A DNA stretch of 64,000 nucleotides from the UHGV virus genome UHGV-0084588; one strand, 5' to 3'. The translations under genes and the position numbers were made by a program. This DNA is from a virus. Position 1 is the stretch's first letter, and each line of letters begins with the position of its first letter. Below, one piece after another: positions 11,354-51,383 of the stretch. The notes beneath the pieces were generated by a model. That model was not told the DNA's origin. It was given only the letters and a program-made list of their open reading frames with translations, and ran no database searches.

Positions 11354-11379
11354 TCAGATATATATTACCTAGGGGAGAG
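11354..11379 (+). promoter_or_regulatory. conserved 26-bp promoter-like motif (copy 1) with downstream hairpin
   Basis: TCAGATATATATTACCTAGGGGAGAG, one of four near-identical copies; followed by a hairpin and about 70 nt upstream of the ATG at 11426. Confidence 0.5.
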
Positions 11380-15261: not shown

Positions 15262-15287
15262 TCAGATATATATTACCTAGGTGAGAG
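15262..15287 (+). promoter_or_regulatory. conserved 26-bp promoter-like motif (copy 2) with downstream hairpin
   Basis: TCAGATATATATTACCTAGGTGAGAG followed by the perfect hairpin GTGAGAGT-tcagtt-ACTCTCAC; 70 nt upstream of the ATG at 15332. Confidence 0.5.
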
Positions 15288-28311: not shown

Positions 28312-28707
28312 CTATCGTCCTGTACACGCTGAGCAACCGCCAGTACAGCTACTGGAACACGATGCTGTGCACCCGCCAGAACAAGTGCCTGAGCACAGGT
28401 TAGCACACCCACCTGAACAACTCCCCGAGCACCCTGAACACGAAGTGGAACACCCTGACGTACAGTTTGCAGAACATGAGGAACCACAACCGCCGGACGC
28501 GTTCCCAGTACACCCACCAGAACAACTCGAACAGGTAAACGAACACGTACCCGCACAGTCGTAATGCGCACGATTCTGACCGCCGAACAGGTCTGCGTTA
28601 TTCGTACCTTTATTGCGGATATAGTTCTGTACACCCGTGGTATTTTTCAGTGCGATACTATCGACGTTATTAAGACGTCTTACTAATTCAGATAAACCGA
28701 CTGCCAT
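28312..28707 (-). CDS. Cys-rich leader/core small protein 2
   Basis: Leader MAVGLSELVRRLNNVDS... then an ~80-aa core of C-[ST]-x-x-C repeats (HYDCAGTCSFTCSSCSGGCTGN...); GGGGGAAG RBS. Confidence 0.65.
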   Translation of the reverse strand: MAVGLSELVRRLNNVDSIALKNTTGVQNYIRNKGTNNADLFGGQNRAHYDCAGTCSFTCSSCSGGCTGNASGGCGSSCSANCTSGCSTSCSGCSGSCSGGCANLCSGTCSGGCTASCSSSCTGGCSACTGR

Positions 28708-28716
28708 TTCTTCCCC

Positions 28717-29109
28717 CTATCGTCCAGAGCATCCGCCGGAGCAAGCACCCGAACAGTTATGCGAACAACGTCCAGTACAACTTCCGGTACAGGTACTTGT
28801 ACAACTGCTAGAACAACCGCCAGAACAGCCAGAGCATCCTGAACAGTTACCCCCACAGGACGAAGAACAGCTACCCACACAAGCGGCTGAACAGTTACCT
28901 GAACAGCTAGAGCAACCGTGACTACATCCGTTAGAACATGTCCACGAACACGTTCCTCCGCAGTCTAAACGTGAAGGTGTCCAACCAGAAAACGAATCTG
29001 CCGCGTTATGCGCTTTCGATGCGACCTGCGCATCGACACGAGGGCCGGTAGCGACTGTATTTTCTACTACGGTTAACCGATCGCGCATTTGTTTAACACT
29101 AATCGCCAT
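28717..29109 (-). CDS. Cys-rich leader/core small protein 1
   Basis: Leader MAISVKQMRDRLTVVEN... then SRLDCGGTCSWTCSNGCSHGCSSCSGNCS... ending GCSGR; AAGGAAG RBS. Confidence 0.65.
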   Translation of the reverse strand: MAISVKQMRDRLTVVENTVATGPRVDAQVASKAHNAADSFSGWTPSRLDCGGTCSWTCSNGCSHGCSSCSGNCSAACVGSCSSSCGGNCSGCSGCSGGCSSSCTSTCTGSCTGRCSHNCSGACSGGCSGR

Positions 29110-39890: not shown

Positions 39891-42800
39891 TTAATCGCGA
39901 ATGATTACCGCCTGCACTTTATTGTTGGTGTCGATAAACGACATTACGCGCTCCTTGTTAAGATAAGGAGGTATCGGTAACGCAGCGTAATCCGCCAGGC
40001 TGTTATTAAATTCAGTTGCCACTAACGCATTAAGCGTTTCGGGGTCTGAGCTGACACCGGCCAATTCCATGACGCGTACTCGATTTAATGAGGAATAGTT
40101 GCTAATATAGTCCAACAACGTACCGTAGACTTTATTCGCAGTTGCGCTGTCTGCTGTAGAGCGGATGTTGGCACGAACCTCATCCTCATAAAGTCCCCCT
40201 AAACCGTAGTAAATAGGGGTATACGGATCATTAACAATAGGTTCGATATTGAACCCGGTTAAACGGTCGACTAATGGGATTTTCTGCGTAGTTCCCCCTG
40301 CTGCCGTACAGCTTACGTATTTATCTGTCGTGGATAAAAACACCACGATAGTATACACAGTGCCAGCTAAAGTCAGCGATGCATTAAACGTTATTGCGTT
40401 GTTTGCACCACGGGTGTGGGTAAACGTTACGTCAGGTTGTAATGAACTCCACGGTGCAGCTGTAACACGCTTCGTTGGTGTGAAACCTACCACTACCGAT
40501 TTCCCGCTACCGAAGTTCAAACCGAACCCTGCGTAACAATATTCACCGTTACTGTCAGTTAAACGATAACCGCGAGTGATGAGTAATGACAACCGCATAA
40601 ACTCGCCGTCGGTGTTCTTCCAACAACCTAAAACAGTTTCTAACACTGTTCCGGTTTTTGCGTTGCTTTCTGTTTCCCAACTTACCCGCATTCCTGCGTT
40701 TTTGAAAGTCGGGAATAAGTTGTGAATAAAACCATGAAGGTTATCACTTACCCCTTTCGCATCGAAAACCCACTTTGATGCGAGCTGGTCGTATTTCACC
40801 CCGTCTAAGGCTCTATACTGTCCACCGACGACATAACGCCAATCTGCTTCACCACGTACTACTGCCTGGAGTCCCGAAGCCCAGCAGGGCGCACCTACCG
40901 TTAAGTTAGCTAACCCAAGCACTGCACGTGTCGTGGAGCGGTGAATATGCGCGTTATCGTCAGCAGCGTGATCTTTCAGTTCACGGAAATCGTCCAGCCG
41001 TGTGACGTTACGCATCTCTGTAACGAACACTTCAGAAAGGTCATTGACGCCGATTAATCCCACACGCGTCATGGTATCCGTTTCAGCCTGACTGTAGCTG
41101 TCGTGAATAATGTACTTCGCTTTGTTGTCAACAATATCAACAAAAATCCCCGCGTAGATTTCTGTATTCAACTTCGGAAAACGTTCACTGACGTTAATCG
41201 TCGTCAACGGCACGGTGTATGTTTCGCCACCGATAAAATACGTTGATGCTGGAAGTGTAACCAGTATTTTGTCTTTGACCGTAACATCAATTAAGTCGTT
41301 ACCAGACTTACCAAAACGTATAATGTCGAGACGTGCCTCCGAGTCAACACCCCCGACAGCACTTTCCAATTTTTCAATCTGGGTAGTCTGCGCCATTACC
41401 ACACTGCCATCGAGTGCTAAAGTCGCGTCGTCCACATCCAGACCAAATTTAATCAAGCCACGTTTCGCGGTGGTTGCGTTCCCGGTACCAAATGCGGTAA
41501 ATGGGTGGTGGTGTACTTTAGGCGAATATTTATCTAACTCCGCCTGCTGTGCTGTGGAGATCGGCAAATCGACATCGGGTGTATTCGCAACGTTACCCAA
41601 ACCAAAGGTAATTTTGTCGATAGTAACTGAGCTGGTAAGTTGCATGTCGTTAATGTACGATTTAGCTGCAACTAGTTTACCGGTAAACTCAGCGTCCAGT
41701 TTTTCAATCAATGCGGGGGTTGCTGCGAGATTTTCAGCCGTACCGAATTCGTCCGTTAACTGCCAACACGCTAACGTAGTAACGTCTTCGGCAACCGGAA
41801 GAATAAACGTTGCTACGAATGGCGATGCTTTAATCCCACTACCGGTAAGTTCCACCGTAGCTGTAGATGCACCGTAGAATAATCCCGTACCACCTGCAGT
41901 ATTGCCCGGCAAATACGGCGCTACCGTGGTGGGGTCTAAGAGCTTCTTACCACGCCACAGTAATCCTCGGTCATCGGGATATAGCACAAGCTGGTTGTCG
42001 CCCGCTTGCAACGTTACCGGGTTGTTACCCACGTTAACATCAGTAGAACCTTGGCCGATGAACTTAATGGATTTCGGGTCAACGACAAACTGGGCACCTA
42101 AACGGGTCCCGTCAACGACATCGGGCGCTTTCTTAATGGTAACCGTGTTACCTTTATTCCCCGAGCTAATAGTGACGTTGTCAGCAACATTACCGATCAA
42201 TGATTTAAAGTGGTGGCTATTCTCCAATGCTTCTAGTGCAGCGTCCATGTTAGTGAAGTTAACACGTGCACTATATGTCTTGCCGTTTATGGTAATAACG
42301 ACATCAAACACGTTCCCTGTGCGTTTCAGTTGAAAACGCAGCGTAAAATCCCCATCCGGTATTGCTGGATTAGGAGCTTGGGAAAGATACTGAACTTCCG
42401 GTGTGGGATTCGAAAAACCGTTCAGTTCCAACTTAACGCCGACTTTACCCGCAGAAATTTCACCTGTAAGCTGGATAAATTTTCCAGAGTTAGTACCAGG
42501 TTTCTGATAGAAACGTAGGCTAACCGTACCGACGGCTTCATTACCAGACGCTGTTTTACGTCCGGTAACAATAAAGTCAATATCTTGCAGGTTAGCAGGT
42601 ACCGCATTAAAAGAAGTGGTGAATCCACTCTTCGTTCCTGTGTAACGAAGCGCACCGTGATACCTGTGACCATTACTAACGTAGCTTTCGCTAAAACGAG
42701 GACTCACGTATTTCGACATTGACACCGGGTCAACTTCCGTCGTGAACGAAGTAAAACCGGGCAGCGTTCCAATAGTTCCGTTAGCCGTTTTCGTAGCTGA

Positions 42801-44213
42801 CGTGCGTAATAGTTTCTTTTGTGCTGTCAACGTCGCTTGTGTTGGATACTTAGCATTAACATAGTCCGTTAACTGCGGCTTCGTTTTTCCGTAAGCTAAT
42901 GCTGCATCCGACGCAATGCCGTTCAACTCTAACGCACGGATCGGACCCCACGTATCTGTGTGTGGGTTGTCCTTACGTGTAACGTGTTCGTGCGCAGGCG
43001 CATTACGATACAGCTGCTCAACTAACTGATGATACTTAACTATTAACTGGTAAACATCGTTATCGACGTCGGGCTCCGGCGCACCGGGTAAAGAACGAAT
43101 TTGAACATAATCGTTTTCAGCCGCATACCAGTTCAGGTTAATGTTCGTTTTAGACTTCAACCATTTGGCTACATTCGTTTTCGAATACCCTGCCGAGAAC
43201 TCATCAGGCGGCGTATCGACGTTGAATGTATAATCCATGGTCTGTTTATTTGTTTTTACTACGATTACGTAAACGCCGTTTCCGGGCTGACGGGTTACAC
43301 TAAAATCGATATCGTTTTTTAACTCATCGTCAGTTAAACCGTTGATTAAAGTATAATCGTAGTTTGTTGAACCACTGCCAATAGCGACAGTTAAGACCAG
43401 TGAGATTTTGCGCTGTTTTAGCTGTAACCGTAGAATGCTTGCACCGCCGTTGGCATAACAGAGCATCCAATCGATCTGCTCGTTCGGATTCAACTTTGTC
43501 ATGTCTGGCAGAATAGCAGGAATTCTGTGTTTCACCGACAGGGAATAGTCGTTAAAGGTTGTCGCGTTATAACTCAGGCTATAACGGTGGCGAGCTGTGT
43601 TGTAGGTGAAACCGCCTTTATTATCGTACGCGGCATACTGCTCGGAAGTGATAACCTTGCTATTAGCACGATATTCCAAATCCAGTGTGTTGCGTGCGAT
43701 TGGGTTAAGCCGACTCACGACTTCCCCTAACGAATCGCCTACCCCAGCAATGGCCTGCATTAGCTCCAGTTCACCTTTCCAATTCTCCCAATCGAACTGG
43801 ATATCGACCGGTGGAAAGTAAACGTCTCCGATAACGGTGTCCCACTGACACGCGGAAGGGTATTTACCTTTATTAAGCTCGCGCTCTGCGGTAATCTGCT
43901 CTTGGGTTGCTTCACCGCAACCAACGGCATGGTAATCTACAGTAAAGTTCGATTTGTATTTGTCATTAACAATCCAAATCATCCCGTGAATGAGATAGGC
44001 TGTGCGCAACATACCAGTCTCGTACGGGTGTGTAATAACGTAATCGTCGCCTAAGGTCAGTATTTTGCCGCCGCTCTTGACCACCAGGGATGTGGTGAAA
44101 AAAGGGGCGTGGGCAGGTACCAACATTCGGTATTTCGTACCAATGACGGCGACCGCTTCACCGGTTATTTTATTCCCCGGTTTTTTGAAGTGTGGGTCTA
44201 AGACGACAGCCAT
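39891..44213 (-). CDS. giant tailspike/tail-fibre protein (1440 aa)
   Basis: N-terminal YRMLVPAHAPFFTTSLVVKSGGKILTLGDDYVITHPY anchor motif; FGLGNVANTPDVDLPIS and KVHHHPF segments. Confidence 0.75.
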   Translation of the reverse strand: MAVVLDPHFKKPGNKITGEAVAVIGTKYRMLVPAHAPFFTTSLVVKSGGKILTLGDDYVITHPYETGMLRTAYLIHGMIWIVNDKYKSNFTVDYHAVGCGEATQEQITAERELNKGKYPSACQWDTVIGDVYFPPVDIQFDWENWKGELELMQAIAGVGDSLGEVVSRLNPIARNTLDLEYRANSKVITSEQYAAYDNKGGFTYNTARHRYSLSYNATTFNDYSLSVKHRIPAILPDMTKLNPNEQIDWMLCYANGGASILRLQLKQRKISLVLTVAIGSGSTNYDYTLINGLTDDELKNDIDFSVTRQPGNGVYVIVVKTNKQTMDYTFNVDTPPDEFSAGYSKTNVAKWLKSKTNINLNWYAAENDYVQIRSLPGAPEPDVDNDVYQLIVKYHQLVEQLYRNAPAHEHVTRKDNPHTDTWGPIRALELNGIASDAALAYGKTKPQLTDYVNAKYPTQATLTAQKKLLRTSATKTANGTIGTLPGFTSFTTEVDPVSMSKYVSPRFSESYVSNGHRYHGALRYTGTKSGFTTSFNAVPANLQDIDFIVTGRKTASGNEAVGTVSLRFYQKPGTNSGKFIQLTGEISAGKVGVKLELNGFSNPTPEVQYLSQAPNPAIPDGDFTLRFQLKRTGNVFDVVITINGKTYSARVNFTNMDAALEALENSHHFKSLIGNVADNVTISSGNKGNTVTIKKAPDVVDGTRLGAQFVVDPKSIKFIGQGSTDVNVGNNPVTLQAGDNQLVLYPDDRGLLWRGKKLLDPTTVAPYLPGNTAGGTGLFYGASTATVELTGSGIKASPFVATFILPVAEDVTTLACWQLTDEFGTAENLAATPALIEKLDAEFTGKLVAAKSYINDMQLTSSVTIDKITFGLGNVANTPDVDLPISTAQQAELDKYSPKVHHHPFTAFGTGNATTAKRGLIKFGLDVDDATLALDGSVVMAQTTQIEKLESAVGGVDSEARLDIIRFGKSGNDLIDVTVKDKILVTLPASTYFIGGETYTVPLTTINVSERFPKLNTEIYAGIFVDIVDNKAKYIIHDSYSQAETDTMTRVGLIGVNDLSEVFVTEMRNVTRLDDFRELKDHAADDNAHIHRSTTRAVLGLANLTVGAPCWASGLQAVVRGEADWRYVVGGQYRALDGVKYDQLASKWVFDAKGVSDNLHGFIHNLFPTFKNAGMRVSWETESNAKTGTVLETVLGCWKNTDGEFMRLSLLITRGYRLTDSNGEYCYAGFGLNFGSGKSVVVGFTPTKRVTAAPWSSLQPDVTFTHTRGANNAITFNASLTLAGTVYTIVVFLSTTDKYVSCTAAGGTTQKIPLVDRLTGFNIEPIVNDPYTPIYYGLGGLYEDEVRANIRSTADSATANKVYGTLLDYISNYSSLNRVRVMELAGVSSDPETLNALVATEFNNSLADYAALPIPPYLNKERVMSFIDTNNKVQAVIIRD

Positions 44214-44282
44214 TATCTACTCCTATAGTCCGTGGGCGTCGAAGTTCATACTATGACTTGAATCTATAGAGGAAAAAGAGCT

Positions 44283-45545
44283 GTGACTACTGCTTATCAA
44301 GTGCGGCCCGACAGCGCTTTTGGCTTCTCTCGAGAGTCCCGTACCTGGGGAGCCATCGATGTCACGCAACCCTTAACTACGTTGTGTTCAGACTACCACA
44401 CCTTTGAGATCGGTTTAAGTGCACTTGGTAAAGACTATACGTTAATCAGTCAATACCATCTTGCTGAACTACAAAACCGAACAGACACTTTACAAGATTG
44501 GTTAAATGAAAAGGCCGGAAACGTCATTCCCACTCTAAAAGCCGGATTGCCGAAACTGGAATTCAGTTGGGCACATTACCAATCAATTAATGCCGATGTA
44601 CCTGTCGAAACATATCTGTGTCCACCAGGGTACCACCACAGTCAAGATTTCAGCCTAGACGATGCTGATGACGTTGTCGTCGTTTGTGAGGACAAGTGGA
44701 AAGACAAATACCGTAATAGTGTGCTGTACAACATTAACGGTCAATGGGTACCGCACCAGACGGATACCGTAGGTGTGCGATTGCCTGGGGCCGGTAAAAT
44801 CGTACGGAGAGCATGTACGCCAGATATTGGCTGTATGGTTTTTGGTCAGCTAGGGAATGTTAAAACCTATCCAATCGCCAACCTTACGCTAAACAAGCTC
44901 GACACTACACGCGACTATTACTCCACGTTAATGATATCGCTGCCTGAGTCTATTACGGGGAAAACCGTGGGTTTCGTCATAGGCGGATTGTTACGTTGGT
45001 TGCCCCCGGACGGTTATTTCTCTGACCGTGCGATCATGATTTCTTTACCGAATTTTGATCTTGCACGGACCGTTCTGGAAACCCGCCGTTATTACGACTG
45101 GGATAGCATCGGTGTAGGGGATTTATCATCGCCTACCAACGTTCAACGTATTCGTAACCCTGAAACACTGAAGGCGCTTTTACTCCACGAATCCTCTTTT
45201 ATCTTTACGGTAGATAATCCGTATTTAGAAGAAGAAGTTGTGGGTGTTTCGCATAACGCCGTTTGGGGACGCTGTTACCTCAAGGACCCCAACGATCCTG
45301 ATTCTGAAAAACCATTAGGGTACTTAAATAATCGATTTGGTAAGACGGTAGGTTATTGGCCTACGTGGGAGGAAGGTGAGTGGGTATTTAACACTACCGA
45401 ATTCGACAGTCAAAACTACGTCTTTCGTGAAGCCCGGTGGTATAATCAGAAGAAGATTAACGATGCTCAAGCAATCGTTGGTCCATTCGGTCCCTGGGAA
45501 AAAGTGTATTTAGAAATGCATCGCTTTAAAGCACGAAAAAAATAA
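44283..45545 (+). CDS. hypothetical protein
   Basis: 420-aa ORF with GTG start (GAGGAAAAAGAG upstream); divergent from the tailspike block; followed by a strong terminator. Confidence 0.5.
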   Translation: MTTAYQVRPDSAFGFSRESRTWGAIDVTQPLTTLCSDYHTFEIGLSALGKDYTLISQYHLAELQNRTDTLQDWLNEKAGNVIPTLKAGLPKLEFSWAHYQSINADVPVETYLCPPGYHHSQDFSLDDADDVVVVCEDKWKDKYRNSVLYNINGQWVPHQTDTVGVRLPGAGKIVRRACTPDIGCMVFGQLGNVKTYPIANLTLNKLDTTRDYYSTLMISLPESITGKTVGFVIGGLLRWLPPDGYFSDRAIMISLPNFDLARTVLETRRYYDWDSIGVGDLSSPTNVQRIRNPETLKALLLHESSFIFTVDNPYLEEEVVGVSHNAVWGRCYLKDPNDPDSEKPLGYLNNRFGKTVGYWPTWEEGEWVFNTTEFDSQNYVFREARWYNQKKINDAQAIVGPFGPWEKVYLEMHRFKARKK

Positions 45546-45550
45546 AGTAA

Positions 45551-45593
45551 CCTCCTACCCTCTAAGAGGGTAGGAGTAGCACGTTTTTTTTTT
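45551..45593 (+). terminator. rho-independent terminator
   Basis: CTCCTACCCTC-taag-AGGGTAGGAG hairpin followed by a T-run of about 11 nt. Confidence 0.8.
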
Positions 45594-45597
45594 TCGC

Positions 45598-45807
45598 TTA
45601 GTCTTTTTTGTAGACAATCGCGTTACCGTGCAGTTTGTTGTTGCCGGAAATACCGATAACTTTGAATGCGTCGCCGCCAATTTTTTCGGCTTCAGCAGCC
45701 AGTTTACCAGTTACATGATCAACGGTATCGCCGAAAGCGCTGACGTTACCGATTTTCTTAAACTCTTCTGGAATATGCTCAGCAGAAGAGAACTCTTTAA
45801 TAGACAT
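45598..45807 (-). CDS. DUF1471 (BhsA/McbA/YdgH-like) domain protein lacking a signal peptide
   Basis: Start at the ATG at 45807 (GGAGAG RBS); C-terminal ...GDAFKVIGISGNNKLHGNAIVYKKD parallels the BhsA C-terminus (...SFRITSVTGPNTLHGTAVIYK) as recalled. Confidence 0.55.
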   Translation of the reverse strand: MSIKEFSSAEHIPEEFKKIGNVSAFGDTVDHVTGKLAAEAEKIGGDAFKVIGISGNNKLHGNAIVYKKD

Positions 45808-46013
45808 AACAGCTCTCCATTTCAAAAGGTTAGTGGTCTAAGACCGACGTGTGTTACAACCGAAGCATAAGATAGCTCCTCCCCGTAGGGAGGAGTAGAG
45901 TGCGCGAAAAAAGTGGCCTGCTTAACTAAACGATGGGTTTAAGAAAAGTGTTGATAAAAAGTTTTACCAACGTCAGGTCACAATATATAAAAACAACGTA
46001 AGAAAAAGGGGAA

Positions 46014-46979
46014 TTATTGCGGAGGTGATGTCGGGCCATGTTTACCTTGGTGAATGTGAACGCTAAAGGTAATACCAGAAATAACGGCATCTTTAACCGT
46101 AAAGACACCGACGCCTTTGCCAGTACCGCCGTATTTGAAGTTCTTAGCGATTTCCAGATTACCGGTGAACATCGCTTCATTCCCTTCTTGTTTAAAGTTC
46201 GGCGTTTTAAATGTTGTCGAACTCCCTGCTTCCGTTAACCAGGTTTGTGTTTTAAACGTAACGGATTTCGCTGCTTCCGTATTGCGAACTTCGCATTTTT
46301 CATTAATTGTTTTCGTTTCCAGGTTAATAGAACGCTTTGAATAAATGAACGCATCTTCTTTGTTGATGTTCACTTTTGAAAGCATCGCATTCTCAAAACC
46401 TAAATCGTCTTCCACCGAGTTAATGTAATACTTATTCCCTTTGTGGTCAACACACTGCCACGTGCCATTTGCATTATCAAACTGAAATAACCACGCCGCT
46501 TTCTCGCCGTTCACCATACTTGTTCTTAGCGTGATATGTTTGTCAATCGTCGAGATATTCAACACATACGCATTGGACAGGTCATCCGCCATCTGGTTTT
46601 CAGGGTCAGCAGACCACGCGTAAACCGCATCCTCTAATCGCTTAACGTTAGCGAAGTTCAGATCAATCCAAAAATAAATATCGGTTTTCCCCAAACGTAA
46701 CAAGATAACGTAATCTTCTCGTTTAACGTCAGGGGAATTAATTCGGTTGGAGTTAAACTTCCACCACTTTGCTGTTATCGTGTTACCCGTCTTAATGGTT
46801 AGGTTATCTGTTGCACCAGACGTTTCATGCGTCTTTTCAGTTGCTGAAGAAACAGATTGCACCACGGTAGGGTTAGCAAAGTTGGTTTCAATTGGTATCA
46901 CTTTTACCCGATCTGTACCACGGGGTTTGTCTTCCGCGACGATACCAATTGAGAAAAAATCAACACTGGATTTCTCCAT
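46014..46979 (-). CDS. possible baseplate central spike protein (gpV/gp138-like)
   Basis: 321 aa; N-terminal GIVAEDKPRGTDRVKVIPIE resembles the OB-fold start of spike proteins; C-terminal SVHIHQGKHG His cluster as at spike tips. Confidence 0.4.
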   Translation of the reverse strand: MEKSSVDFFSIGIVAEDKPRGTDRVKVIPIETNFANPTVVQSVSSATEKTHETSGATDNLTIKTGNTITAKWWKFNSNRINSPDVKREDYVILLRLGKTDIYFWIDLNFANVKRLEDAVYAWSADPENQMADDLSNAYVLNISTIDKHITLRTSMVNGEKAAWLFQFDNANGTWQCVDHKGNKYYINSVEDDLGFENAMLSKVNINKEDAFIYSKRSINLETKTINEKCEVRNTEAAKSVTFKTQTWLTEAGSSTTFKTPNFKQEGNEAMFTGNLEIAKNFKYGGTGKGVGVFTVKDAVISGITFSVHIHQGKHGPTSPPQ

Positions 46980-47007: not shown

Positions 47008-47033
47008 TCAGATATATATTACTTAAGTGAATA
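47008..47033 (+). promoter_or_regulatory. conserved 26-bp promoter-like motif (copy 3) with downstream hairpin
   Basis: TCAGATATATATTACTTAAGTGAATA followed by an 11-bp stem (TAGGGACTGAA/TTCAGTCCCTA); unlike the other copies it lies about 390 nt upstream of the next ATG. Confidence 0.45.
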
Positions 47034-51357: not shown

Positions 51358-51383
51358 TCAGATATATATTACTTAGGTGAGAG
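51358..51383 (+). promoter_or_regulatory. conserved 26-bp promoter-like motif (copy 4) with downstream hairpin
   Basis: TCAGATATATATTACTTAGGTGAGAG followed by GAGTTA-tgat-TAACTC; 72 nt upstream of the ATG at 51430. Confidence 0.5.

What the first reader, a model, noticed from the sequence alone, without database searches (positions are those of the whole stretch)
45598..45807. Phage-encoded DUF1471 (BhsA/McbA-like) homolog lacking its signal peptide
The 69-aa protein matches the mature domain of small enterobacterial periplasmic stress proteins (C-terminal ...GNNKLHGNAIVYK) but starts directly with the domain, implying cytoplasmic localisation. This is a likely host-derived gene that may act as a decoy in biofilm or stress signalling, and it ties the host to the Enterobacterales.
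Basis: partly seen in the sequence, partly recalled or inferred. Interest (0 to 1): 0.5.

Follow-up and report, generated by a model that had tools for sequence, protein, structure and literature searches.

The report
Signal-less DUF1471 gene in jumbo phage
A giant phage of enterobacteria carries a real, conserved copy of a small bacterial envelope-stress domain (DUF1471) stripped of its export signal; the gene family is already in databases and its function is still unknown, so this is a modestly interesting but not extraordinary gene.

Summary
Window 45598-45807 (minus strand) encodes a 69-aa protein that is one complete DUF1471/PF07338 domain (38.2 bits, cut-off 27). The predicted fold is the DUF1471 fold, and there is no signal peptide.

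It is not a recent host pick-up. It is this phage's copy of PHROG 8068 / SPN3US gp172. Every SPN3US-like jumbo phage of Enterobacterales that I examined has this gene at the same site, between the central-spike gene and an outer-baseplate gene. A Vibrio relative has an empty gap there.

The gene sits in its own cassette: a hairpin, a TATG motif of the phiKZ late-promoter type, a 59-nt leader, a strong ribosome-binding site, the CDS and a bidirectional terminator. It is under purifying selection.

Deeply divergent alleles have been swapped between phage genera independently of the flanking genes.

Published SPN3US proteomics shows that gp172 is made. Its signal falls as particle purification improves, and it is absent from the most sensitive virion analysis. 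It is therefore not a stable virion part.

My best reading is a late, cytoplasm-retained accessory protein that reaches the outside by lysis. The "signalling decoy" idea is untested. The "BhsA" annotation in several GenBank records is not justified.

The parts
45598..45807 (-). CDS of the 69-aa signal-less DUF1471 protein (orthologue of SPN3US gp172, PHROG 8068)
   Evidence: AlphaFold2 pLDDT 89.3 with DUF1471 topology. dN/dS is 0.03-0.26 wherever dS is unsaturated.
45813..45818 (-). Shine-Dalgarno sequence GGAGAG, 5 nt upstream of the ATG
   Evidence: Read from the sequence. An equivalent GGAGA/GAGGA box is present in all 13 orthologous loci.
45808..45866 (-). Predicted 59-nt 5' leader, from the putative start-site G at 45866 to the ATG. 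It contains a small hairpin (GGTCTAAGACC on the + strand) at 45835-45845.
   Evidence: Relatives have an AGAC-loop-GTCT hairpin at the same relative place. Inferred; not tested for covariation.
45866..45869 (-). TATG motif (window context CTTATGC); putative middle/late promoter and transcription start of the phiKZ type
   Evidence: A TATG lies 36-66 nt upstream of the ATG in 13 of 13 orthologous loci; where two occur (Wellington, SNUABM_9) the conserved copy lies further upstream. phiKZ late promoters are defined by TATG with G as +1 (PMC4666361; PMC7598289). The flanking tail genes share a conserved back-to-back TATG element.
45876..45895 (-). G+C-rich hairpin (8 bp) separating the spike gene from the DUF1471 cassette
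   Evidence: Relatives have a hairpin plus a T-run here. In the window the T-run is missing, so terminator strength is uncertain.
45903..45917 (-). Conserved non-coding element GCCACTTTTTTCGCG; function unknown
   Evidence: GCCACTTTTTTC(G/A)GC is conserved in Seoulvirus, Erskinevirus, Machinavirus and Wellington loci. It occurs as such only once in the window.
45536..45594 (.). Bidirectional intrinsic terminator shared with the convergent 420-aa gene. It has an 11-bp stem at 45552-45576, a T11 run at 45584-45594 on the + strand, and a T-rich tract at 45536-45546 on the - strand.
   Evidence: -20 to -31 kcal/mol. An equivalent hairpin is present in the loci examined.
46014..46979 (-). Context: central tail spike. 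It is a homologue of phiKZ gp164 and has a C-terminal apex resembling that of Mu gp45.
   Evidence: PDB 6orj, E=1.6e-21. Mu gp45 matches residues 268-320 at E~1e-3. phrog_3216 baseplate assembly protein. Role taken from PMC13250141.
44283..45545 (+). Context: homologue of the phiKZ gp130 outer-baseplate connector and of SPN3US gp171 (essential, tail-associated)
   Evidence: PDB 9xqd, E=2e-8. phrog_3337. PMC5105663. PMC13250141.
44244..44258 (.). Context: back-to-back TATG elements (AGTCATAGTATGAAC on the - strand) in the divergent gap between the 420-aa gene and the 1440-aa fibre-like gene
   Evidence: GGTCATA[GA]TATGA[AC]C is conserved in the 10 related phages; the window reads AGTCATAGTATGAAC, one mismatch to it.

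Best explanation
Shown:
- The ORF encodes a complete DUF1471 (YdgH/BhsA/McbA-like) domain with no export signal.
- It is the window phage's copy of a gene (PHROG 8068, SPN3US gp172) found in every SPN3US-like jumbo phage of Enterobacterales that I examined.
- The gene lies in the gap between the convergent central-spike gene and the outer-baseplate gene. A Vibrio relative has nothing in that gap.
- It forms a self-contained cassette: hairpin, conserved TATG motif, leader, strong ribosome-binding site, CDS and bidirectional terminator.
- It is under purifying selection.
- Its alleles have been exchanged between phage genera independently of the flanking genes.
- The SPN3US orthologue is translated during infection but is not a reproducible component of well-purified virions.

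Inferred:
- The domain was captured once from an enterobacterial host, and the signal peptide was lost.
- The protein is made late, together with the tail proteins, by the phage's non-virion RNA polymerase.
- It stays soluble in the cytoplasm.
- It reaches the extracytoplasmic world, where all characterised DUF1471 proteins act, only when the cell lyses, either free or loosely stuck to particles and debris.
- There it most likely binds an envelope or matrix component of Enterobacterales as a host-interaction accessory. It is not a building block of the baseplate.
For: Identity:
- Pfam, NCBIfam and PHROG matches.
- AlphaFold2 pLDDT 89.3. The best PDB fold matches are YdgH-C, RcsF, STM1478-N, SrfN and YahO.
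- No hydrophobic N-terminus in 12 of 12 phage orthologues.

Distribution:
- 60 phage records, all SPN3US-like. A bacterial query finds the same clade and no other phage.
- Synteny holds in 5 genera.
- Vibrio phage pVa-21 has the two flanking genes with a 318-nt gap and no such ORF.

Selection: dN/dS is 0.03-0.26. GC content equals the phage background.

Regulation:
- TATG is present in 13 of 13 loci.
- The same motif is conserved, back to back, in front of both neighbouring tail genes in the 10 related phages, with one mismatch to the shared 15-nt consensus in the window.
- phiKZ late promoters are defined by TATG.
- The phage's AT-rich early-type motif occurs 4 times in the window but not here.
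- A strong bidirectional terminator follows the gene.

Independence from neighbours:
- Allele types A and B are 41-49% identical, although the flanking genes are 82-89% identical within a genus.
- Spearman correlation of identity matrices: DUF1471 against spike 0.42, against the gp171 homologue 0.38; spike against the gp171 homologue 0.94.
- Nucleotide identity dips over the gene: to 31-71% over the CDS in the Machinavirus pair (flanks mostly 65-91%) and to 41-66% from the 3' end of the spike gene through the CDS in the Seoulvirus pair (flanks 70-91%).

Proteomics of SPN3US gp172:
- 13 PSM in a crude differential-centrifugation pellet.
- 6 and 3 PSM in CsCl-step preparations.
- 0 PSM in tailed virions purified by step plus buoyant-density gradients.
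- 0 PSM in three tail-rich preparations where gp171 gave 23-39 PSM.
- Not listed in four preparations from 2016.
- Not listed in the 2023 triplicates, which report non-virion traces down to 2 PSM.
Against: - The gene sits inside the baseplate and fibre module and appears to share the tail genes' promoter class. That is also what a minor tail protein or an assembly factor would look like.
- The SPN3US authors label gp172 'Tail'. They found it at 81% coverage in CsCl-step virions, with a PSM/mass ratio (0.86) close to the portal's.
- A 7-kDa protein is easily lost from gel-based MS, so the negative results are weak.
- Late timing rests on a 4-nt motif and on analogy with phiKZ. No transcript data were available to me.
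- No binding partner, envelope-related or otherwise, is known.
- The phage proteins are acidic (pI 4.6-6.3). This differs from the basic, polyanion-binding face of SrfN (PMC4092069).
Confidence: 0.4

Rival explanations
1. It is a true minor tail or baseplate component. It is peripheral and either salt-labile or too small to detect reliably. It displays a host-derived envelope-binding domain on the virion.
For: - Location between the spike and outer-baseplate genes, next to the fibre paralogues.
- Shared TATG motif.
- Detected in CsCl-step virions at 81% coverage.
- Labelled 'Tail' in PMC7411985 Table S2.
- No signal peptide is needed for a protein assembled into virions in the cytoplasm.
Against: - 0 PSM in tailed virions purified by step plus buoyant-density gradients.
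- 0 PSM in three tail-rich preparations that contain gp171 and gp173.
- 2 PSM in a heads-only preparation.
- Absent from the 2016 and 2023 data sets.
- phiKZ and pVa-21 build homologous baseplates without it.
- Its alleles do not co-vary with the spike, the gp171 homologue or the fibre N-terminus.
Confidence: 0.2
2. It is an assembly chaperone or catalyst for the spike, baseplate or fibres. It associates transiently with intermediates and is absent from finished virions, as with T4 gp57A or gp51.
For: - Small, late-type protein encoded in the tail module.
- Most abundant in the crude pellet that contains tails and assembly intermediates.
- Lost on further purification.
Against: - It has its own promoter and terminator, rather than being co-transcribed with a client gene.
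- Alleles are exchanged independently of all three neighbouring genes.
- Relatives with homologous spike and gp130-like proteins lack it.
- Nothing in the DUF1471 literature I read suggests chaperone activity (PMC4092069).
Confidence: 0.12
3. One reading: a cytoplasmic decoy that interferes with host biofilm or stress signalling inside the infected cell.
For: - No signal peptide.
- Not a stable virion protein.
- Cassette-like, horizontally exchanged accessory gene.
- The family is restricted to Enterobacterales, as are the phage hosts.
Against: - Characterised DUF1471 proteins and the RcsF fold relative act in the periplasm, at the outer membrane or outside the cell (PMC4092069). No cytoplasmic partner is known.
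- The gene carries the tail-gene-type TATG motif and lacks the phage's early-type motif. This is a poor fit for a host take-over factor.
- The phage is lytic, so biofilm signalling of the doomed cell is of doubtful value.
Confidence: 0.13

Closest known systems
SPN3US gp172 and its orthologues (PHROG 8068; RefSeq YP_009153466.1 'DUF1471 domain-containing protein')
   Same: - Same length, same start and same domain.
- Same position between the spike (gp173) and gp171 homologues.
- Same cassette layout.
- 41-80% amino-acid identity.
   Different: - The window's allele is type A (closest to SPAsTU, Asesino and SNUABM_9). SPN3US itself carries the divergent type B (44% identity).
- The window phage is not in the phage collection searched. 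It is common as ~225-kb metagenome contigs.
Enterobacterial single-domain DUF1471 proteins (BhsA/YcfR, YbiJ, McbA/YbiM, YahO, YhcN, SrfN)
   Same: - Same Pfam domain and the same predicted beta-alpha-beta-alpha-beta-beta fold.
- The conserved G..S..G...L...L..KA...GA..F.I....G.N..HG.A..YK core is retained.
   Different: - No Sec signal peptide.
- Acidic rather than mostly neutral or basic.
- Scores far below every NCBIfam equivalog cut-off (BhsA 46.8 against 90). It is therefore not an orthologue of any named paralogue.
- Encoded by a lytic jumbo phage.
RcsF (outer-membrane lipoprotein sensor)
   Same: Same fold (TM-score 0.87 normalised to the query). This matches what Eletsky et al. reported for DUF1471.
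   Different: About 12% identity. No lipobox, no disulfide cysteines and no export signal. This is a fold resemblance only.
Phage morons / autonomous accessory cassettes
   Same: - Single small gene with its own promoter-like element and terminator, inserted between two conserved convergent structural genes.
- Absent from an outgroup.
- Phylogeny discordant with the flanks.
   Different: - Classical morons are in temperate phages, expressed from host-type promoters in lysogens.
- Here the phage is a lytic jumbo phage, the promoter motif is the phage's own late type, and the gene is fixed in the whole clade.

Membership tests
DUF1471 / PF07338 (YdgH/BhsA/McbA-like domain) | Sequence match above Pfam's gathering score over the whole domain | tested here: met
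   38.2 bits against 27. Profile positions 2-55 of 55 are covered. A profile of 8 phage sequences hits the YahO structures 2ma4 and 2noc at E~1e-6.
DUF1471 / PF07338 | Alpha+beta fold: short strand 1, short helix, strand 2, long helix, strands 3 and 4 (Eletsky 2014) | tested here: met
   The AlphaFold2 model (pLDDT 89.3) has E4-6, helical turn 9-11, E16-26, H29-42, E47-54 and E59-68. The top Foldseek PDB hits are the DUF1471 structures and RcsF. This is a prediction, not an experimental structure.
DUF1471 proteins as periplasmic or secreted proteins | N-terminal Sec signal peptide (typical of bacterial members, not part of the Pfam domain) | tested here: not met
   The most hydrophobic 10-residue window scores 0.3-1.24 in 12 phage orthologues and 2.06-2.82 in bacterial representatives. 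Among 91 library representatives, only the phage clade forms a coherent signal-less group.
BhsA (NCBIfam NF047859 equivalog), the name used in several GenBank phage records | Score at or above the equivalog cut-off over the full length | tested here: not met
   46.8 bits against a cut-off of 90, covering only model positions 30-85. YbiJ, YahO, McbA and YhcN are also far below their cut-offs. The 'multiple stress resistance protein BhsA' labels are over-annotation.
Virion (tail) structural protein of SPN3US-like phages | Reproducible presence in highly purified virions, co-fractionating with tails | tested here: inconclusive
   From published tables only. PSM counts were 6 and 3 in CsCl-step preparations and 13 in a crude pellet. 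Counts were 0 in step-plus-buoyant tailed virions and in tail-rich preparations. The protein is absent from the 2016 and 2023 data sets. The balance is against a stable component, but a 7-kDa protein is hard to detect.
Spike-tip (PAAR-like) protein, as phiKZ gp163.1 or T4 gp5.4 encoded next to the spike gene | PAAR-type fold capping a blunt beta-helix spike | tested here: not met
   The fold is DUF1471, not PAAR. The neighbouring spike already carries a Mu gp45-like apex at residues 268-320. Information on gp163.1 comes from PMC13250141.
Autonomous accessory (moron-like) cassette | Own promoter and terminator; insertion relative to an outgroup; phylogeny discordant with the flanks | tested here: met
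   (motif and hairpin level only; no transcript data). for the empty site in pVa-21. for the discordance.

The most novel reading that the evidence does not exclude
A host envelope-stress domain has been domesticated by a whole clade of jumbo phages as an exchangeable, late-made effector that bypasses Sec. It would be released at lysis, or carried as a labile passenger on the tail. It would then act on the envelope, LPS or biofilm matrix of neighbouring Enterobacterales, for example by conditioning the next host's surface or masking debris. The allele types would reflect an arms race with host surface variation.
Probability: 0.15. Interest if true: 0.6.

Novelty: new member of a known kind. 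Interest (0 to 1): 0.33.

Why it matters
DUF1471 proteins are among the most strongly stress-induced small proteins of enterobacteria, yet they have no known molecular mechanism. A phage version has been kept for a long time without its export signal. It is exchanged between phage genera and is encoded among the host-recognition genes. That makes it a natural experiment that could expose what the domain binds.

SPN3US already has an amber-mutant genetic system and rich proteomics, so this is testable.

On the practical side, several GenBank phage records call this gene 'multiple stress resistance protein BhsA'. That label is not justified and could mislead safety screens of therapeutic jumbo phages.

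Tried and rejected
1. Recent host-to-phage transfer. Rejected: the gene is syntenic in 5 genera, GC content equals the phage background, and dS is saturated.
2. BhsA orthologue. Rejected: it scores below every NCBIfam equivalog cut-off.
3. Longer ORF starting at TTG 45825, or a hidden signal peptide upstream. Rejected.
4. Stable virion protein. This was my working idea after reading the 2017 SPN3US paper. I weakened it after reading the 2016, 2020 and 2023 tables.
5. Spike-tip analogue of phiKZ gp163.1, suggested by its position next to the spike gene. Rejected on fold, and because the spike has its own apex.
6. Co-evolution with the adjacent spike, gp171 homologue or fibre N-terminus. Not found.
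7. Donor lineage by phylogeny. The NJ tree of 69 columns recovers the phage orthologues as one clade, but with only 95 of 200 bootstraps. The BhsA/YbiJ-like group scores best, but no donor can be named. The first tree script timed out.
8. Literature. I found no paper linking phages and DUF1471. The SPN3US infection time-course proteomics paper (Weintraub 2019) is not held. The pSal-SNUABM-04 paper has no proteomics. One literature search was wasted by a loose setting.
9. TATG enrichment in intergenic DNA of the window is only modest (32 observed, 18.5 expected). The promoter argument therefore rests on cross-phage conservation, not on counts.

Full report
**1. The observation**

Window 45598-45807 on the minus strand is a 69-aa ORF (ATG at 45807, TAA at 45598-45600) preceded by GGAGAG five bases upstream.
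- It matches Pfam PF07338 (YdgH/BhsA/McbA-like, DUF1471) at E=1.4e-9 and 38.2 bits, against a gathering score of 27, over the whole 55-position profile.
- NCBIfam models of the E. coli paralogues match only their mature parts (BhsA model positions 30-85 of 85). All scores are far below the equivalog cut-offs: BhsA 46.8/90, YbiJ 33.8/110, YahO 24.9/90, McbA 22.9/110, YhcN 18.8/125.
- PHROG 8068, a phage family of unknown function, matches end to end at E=4.5e-32.
- An AlphaFold2 model built from 8 phage sequences is confident (pLDDT 89.3, pTM 0.75). It has the DUF1471 topology: strand 4-6, short helix, strand 16-26, helix 29-42, strands 47-54 and 59-68. This matches the description by Eletsky et al. 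(PMC4092069).
- Its best PDB fold matches are YdgH-C (4evu), RcsF (2y1b), STM1478-N (2m2j), SrfN (2ma8) and YahO (2noc).

The protein is therefore a complete mature DUF1471 domain.

**2. No export signal**

- The most hydrophobic 10-residue window in the first 35 residues scores 0.3-1.24 in twelve phage orthologues. It scores 2.06-2.82 in bacterial representatives.
- An exhaustive profile search of 1.84 billion representatives returned 91 proteins at E<=1e-3. The top four are about 69 aa and start with the domain. Most of the rest are roughly 74-95 aa (commonly about 84), with the match starting around residue 30.
- The 15 other representatives without a hydrophobic N-terminus look like fragments or mis-started ORFs.
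- The upstream in-frame TTG would add only MKWRAV.

**3. What phage, and how old is the gene**

- tblastn finds the protein in 60 phage records. All are 197-251-kb SPN3US-like jumbo phages of Salmonella, Erwinia, Escherichia, Cronobacter and Proteus, with 40-80% identity.
- At least one further member, Caitlin, was missed only because of the E-value threshold.
- A bacterial BhsA-like query finds the same clade and no other phage among 50,697 records. The viral structure library gives only two significant fold hits, both from this clade.
- In five genera (Seoulvirus, Erskinevirus, Machinavirus, Wellingtonvirus, Derbicusvirus) the gene lies at the same place. It follows the ~302-321-aa 'baseplate assembly protein' and converges on a ~415-420-aa virion protein. 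Giant fibre-like paralogues lie next door.
- The 321-aa neighbour is a homologue of the phiKZ central spike gp164 (PDB 6orj, E=1.6e-21), with a C-terminal apex like that of Mu gp45. The 420-aa neighbour is a homologue of phiKZ gp130, an outer-baseplate connector under which the fibres attach (PMC13250141). Its SPN3US orthologue gp171 is essential and tail-associated (PMC5105663).
- In the nearest outgroup, Vibrio phage pVa-21, the two flanking genes are adjacent and convergent. The spike homologues are 42% identical. The 318-nt gap between them has no DUF1471 ORF.
- The window gene's GC content (0.429) is that of its neighbours (0.42-0.46).
- dN/dS is 0.03-0.26 wherever dS is not saturated.
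- The nearest named bacterial homologues are from Citrobacter, Kluyvera, Phytobacter, E. coli and Shigella.

I infer one old capture from an enterobacterial host, with loss of the signal peptide, then fixation in the clade. An NJ tree recovers the phage orthologues as one clade, but with only 95 of 200 bootstraps. Synteny is the stronger argument.

**4. Regulatory anatomy**

- The gene is bracketed by hairpins. An 8-bp G+C hairpin (45876-45895) lies upstream. An 11-bp hairpin (45552-45576) lies downstream, flanked by T11 on one strand and a T-rich tract on the other. The downstream hairpin is a bidirectional terminator shared with the convergent gene.
- Between the upstream hairpin and the ATG, all 13 loci compared keep a TATG, usually TA[GC]TATGC, 36-66 nt from the start codon. 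The surrounding sequence has diverged. Where two TATGs occur (Wellington, SNUABM_9), the conserved copy lies further upstream.
- In phiKZ, late promoters are defined by TATG with G as the start site, and each of its four bases is needed for transcription by the non-virion RNA polymerase (PMC4666361; PMC7598289).
- In the divergent gap between the two neighbouring tail genes, GGTCATA[GA]TATGA[AC]C, two TATGs back to back, is conserved in the 10 related phages. The window's copy (44244-44258) reads AGTCATAGTATGAAC, one mismatch to this consensus.
- A 19-nt AT-rich motif, CAGATATATATTACYTAGG, occurs four times in the window (0.05 expected) in front of other operons, but not here. It is of the kind that marks early promoters in such phages.

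I infer that the gene is a monocistronic middle/late unit co-regulated with the tail genes. This rests on motifs only.

**5. The cassette moves**

Pairwise identities reveal the following allele groups:
- Type A: window, SPAsTU, a Logan contig, Asesino, phiEaH2 and SNUABM_9 (71-97% within the type).
- Type B: SPN3US, SNUABM_29 and Caitlin (74-84% within the type).
- Type C: CR5 and Phobos.
- Wellington is intermediate.

Types A and B are only 41-49% identical. Both types occur within Seoulvirus and within Machinavirus, where the flanking genes are 82-89% identical. Conversely, alleles are more alike across genera than their flanks are. Identity matrices correlate at 0.94 between the spike and the gp171 homologue, but at only 0.38-0.49 between DUF1471 and either flank or the fibre N-terminus. 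Nucleotide identity dips over the gene in two intra-genus pairs: to 31-71% over the CDS in SNUABM_9/Caitlin (flanks mostly 65-91%), and to 41-66% from the 3' end of the spike gene through the CDS in SPAsTU/SNUABM_29 (flanks 70-91%). The gene is therefore an exchangeable module. It is not co-adapted to its neighbours.

**6. Is it in the virion?**

The SPN3US orthologue gp172 (44% identical) was reported as 'the smallest SPN3US virion protein'. It gave 6 spectra at 81% coverage and was missing from one mutant (PMC5694885). Reading all the tables changes the picture.
- 2016: not listed in four particle preparations that contain gp171 and gp173.
- 2020, PSM by preparation:

| Preparation | gp172 PSM |
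|---|---|
| Crude differential-centrifugation pellet | 13 |
| CsCl-step preparations (two) | 6 and 3 |
| Tailed virions, step plus buoyant-density gradients | 0 |
| Heads | 2 |
| Three tail-rich preparations (gp171 gave 23-39 PSM) | 0 |

- 2023: no entry among the wild-type and tailless triplicates, which list non-virion traces down to 2 PSM, nor in the chymotrypsin run.

The protein is therefore made. Its amount falls as purification improves, and it does not track tails. One caveat applies: a 7-kDa protein is easily lost in gel-based MS.

**7. Mechanism**

Best reading (confidence about 0.4): a late-made accessory protein retained in the cytoplasm. It reaches the extracytoplasmic space, where all characterised DUF1471 proteins and the fold relative RcsF act, by lysis rather than by Sec. 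It would be free or loosely attached to particles and debris, and would bind some envelope or matrix component of Enterobacterales. The conserved and precise loss of the signal peptide argues against action in the periplasm of the infected cell.

Rivals:
- A salt-labile peripheral tail component (0.2).
- An assembly chaperone (0.12).

No evidence bears directly on any partner.

**8. Comparison and novelty**

- The protein is a member of DUF1471 by sequence and predicted fold.
- It lacks the family's usual export signal.
- It is not an orthologue of BhsA, so several GenBank annotations over-reach.
- It belongs to an existing but unstudied phage family (PHROG 8068; RefSeq already says 'DUF1471 domain-containing protein' for SPN3US).
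- I found no paper discussing it.
- As far as I can tell, the new points here are the empty-site comparison, the cassette anatomy, the allele exchange and the re-reading of the proteomics.

I rate it a new member of a known kind, with interest about 0.33.

Noticed in passing
window 11355-11373, 15263-15281, 47009-47027, 51359-51377 (+ strand): A 19-nt AT-rich motif, CAGATATATATTACYTAGG, occurs four times (0.05 expected by chance). At least two copies follow a terminator and precede + strand operons. It is probably this phage's early (virion RNA polymerase) promoter consensus. One copy sits just beyond the spike gene and would drive the unannotated genes from 47399 onward.
   Followed up: partly
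window 44244-44258: A palindromic back-to-back TATG element (consensus GGTCATA[GA]TATGA[AC]C) lies in the 69-nt divergent gap between the gp130-like gene and the 1440-aa fibre-like gene. It is conserved in the 10 related phages compared; the window's copy, AGTCATAGTATGAAC, has one mismatch. It looks like a bidirectional late promoter.
   Followed up: yes
L005 (Erwinia phage Wellington) 2787-3347, directly downstream of its DUF1471 gene: Wellington gp189 (186 aa) is a second, very divergent signal-less DUF1471 domain fused to a long acidic, probably disordered tail. An extra 52-aa ORF (gp191) also sits in this gap. The site between the spike and baseplate genes appears to be a hot spot for small accessory genes.
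   Followed up: partly
window 45598-45807; loci L018-L023: The exact 69-aa sequence is indexed in 875 blocks of the public assembly collection. These include many ~223-228-kb metagenome contigs and one NCBI metagenome assembly (GCA_948296085.1). Yet the window has almost no near-identical DNA match among 50,697 deposited phage genomes. This looks like a widespread, uncultured SPN3US-like jumbo phage.
   Followed up: partly
cluster of P0010/P0099 (CR5-type allele): The CR5-type orthologue occurs on ~224-kb contigs in more than 100 assemblies deposited as Salmonella enterica. CR5-like jumbo phages may therefore often be co-sequenced with Salmonella isolates, as a carrier state or as contamination.
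   Followed up: no
window 28312-28707 and 28717-29109 (- strand): Two tandem paralogous ~130-aa ORFs have C-terminal halves made almost entirely of Cys/Gly/Ser repeats (GCSGxC, CSSSC, and similar). They lie inside the tail module. I did not search for homologues.
   Followed up: no
window 45903-45917 (- strand): The element GCCACTTTTTTCGCG lies between the spike gene and the DUF1471 cassette. It is conserved in four of the five phage genera. It is not a hairpin and occurs as such only once in the window. Its function is unknown.
   Followed up: partly
window 46014-46979 (- strand): The central spike combines a phiKZ gp164-like body with a C-terminal apex resembling that of Mu gp45 (ending ...HIHQGKHGPTSPPQ). 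phiKZ instead uses a separate tip protein, gp163.1. SPN3US-like phages may therefore lack a separate spike tip.
   Followed up: partly
window 39891-44213 and orthologues (first 360 aa): The N-terminal third of the adjacent giant fibre-like protein is strongly mosaic. It is 70% identical between the window and SPN3US but 45-48% identical to the other Seoulvirus, Erskinevirus and Machinavirus members compared. This pattern is discordant with the neighbouring gp171 homologue.
   Followed up: no
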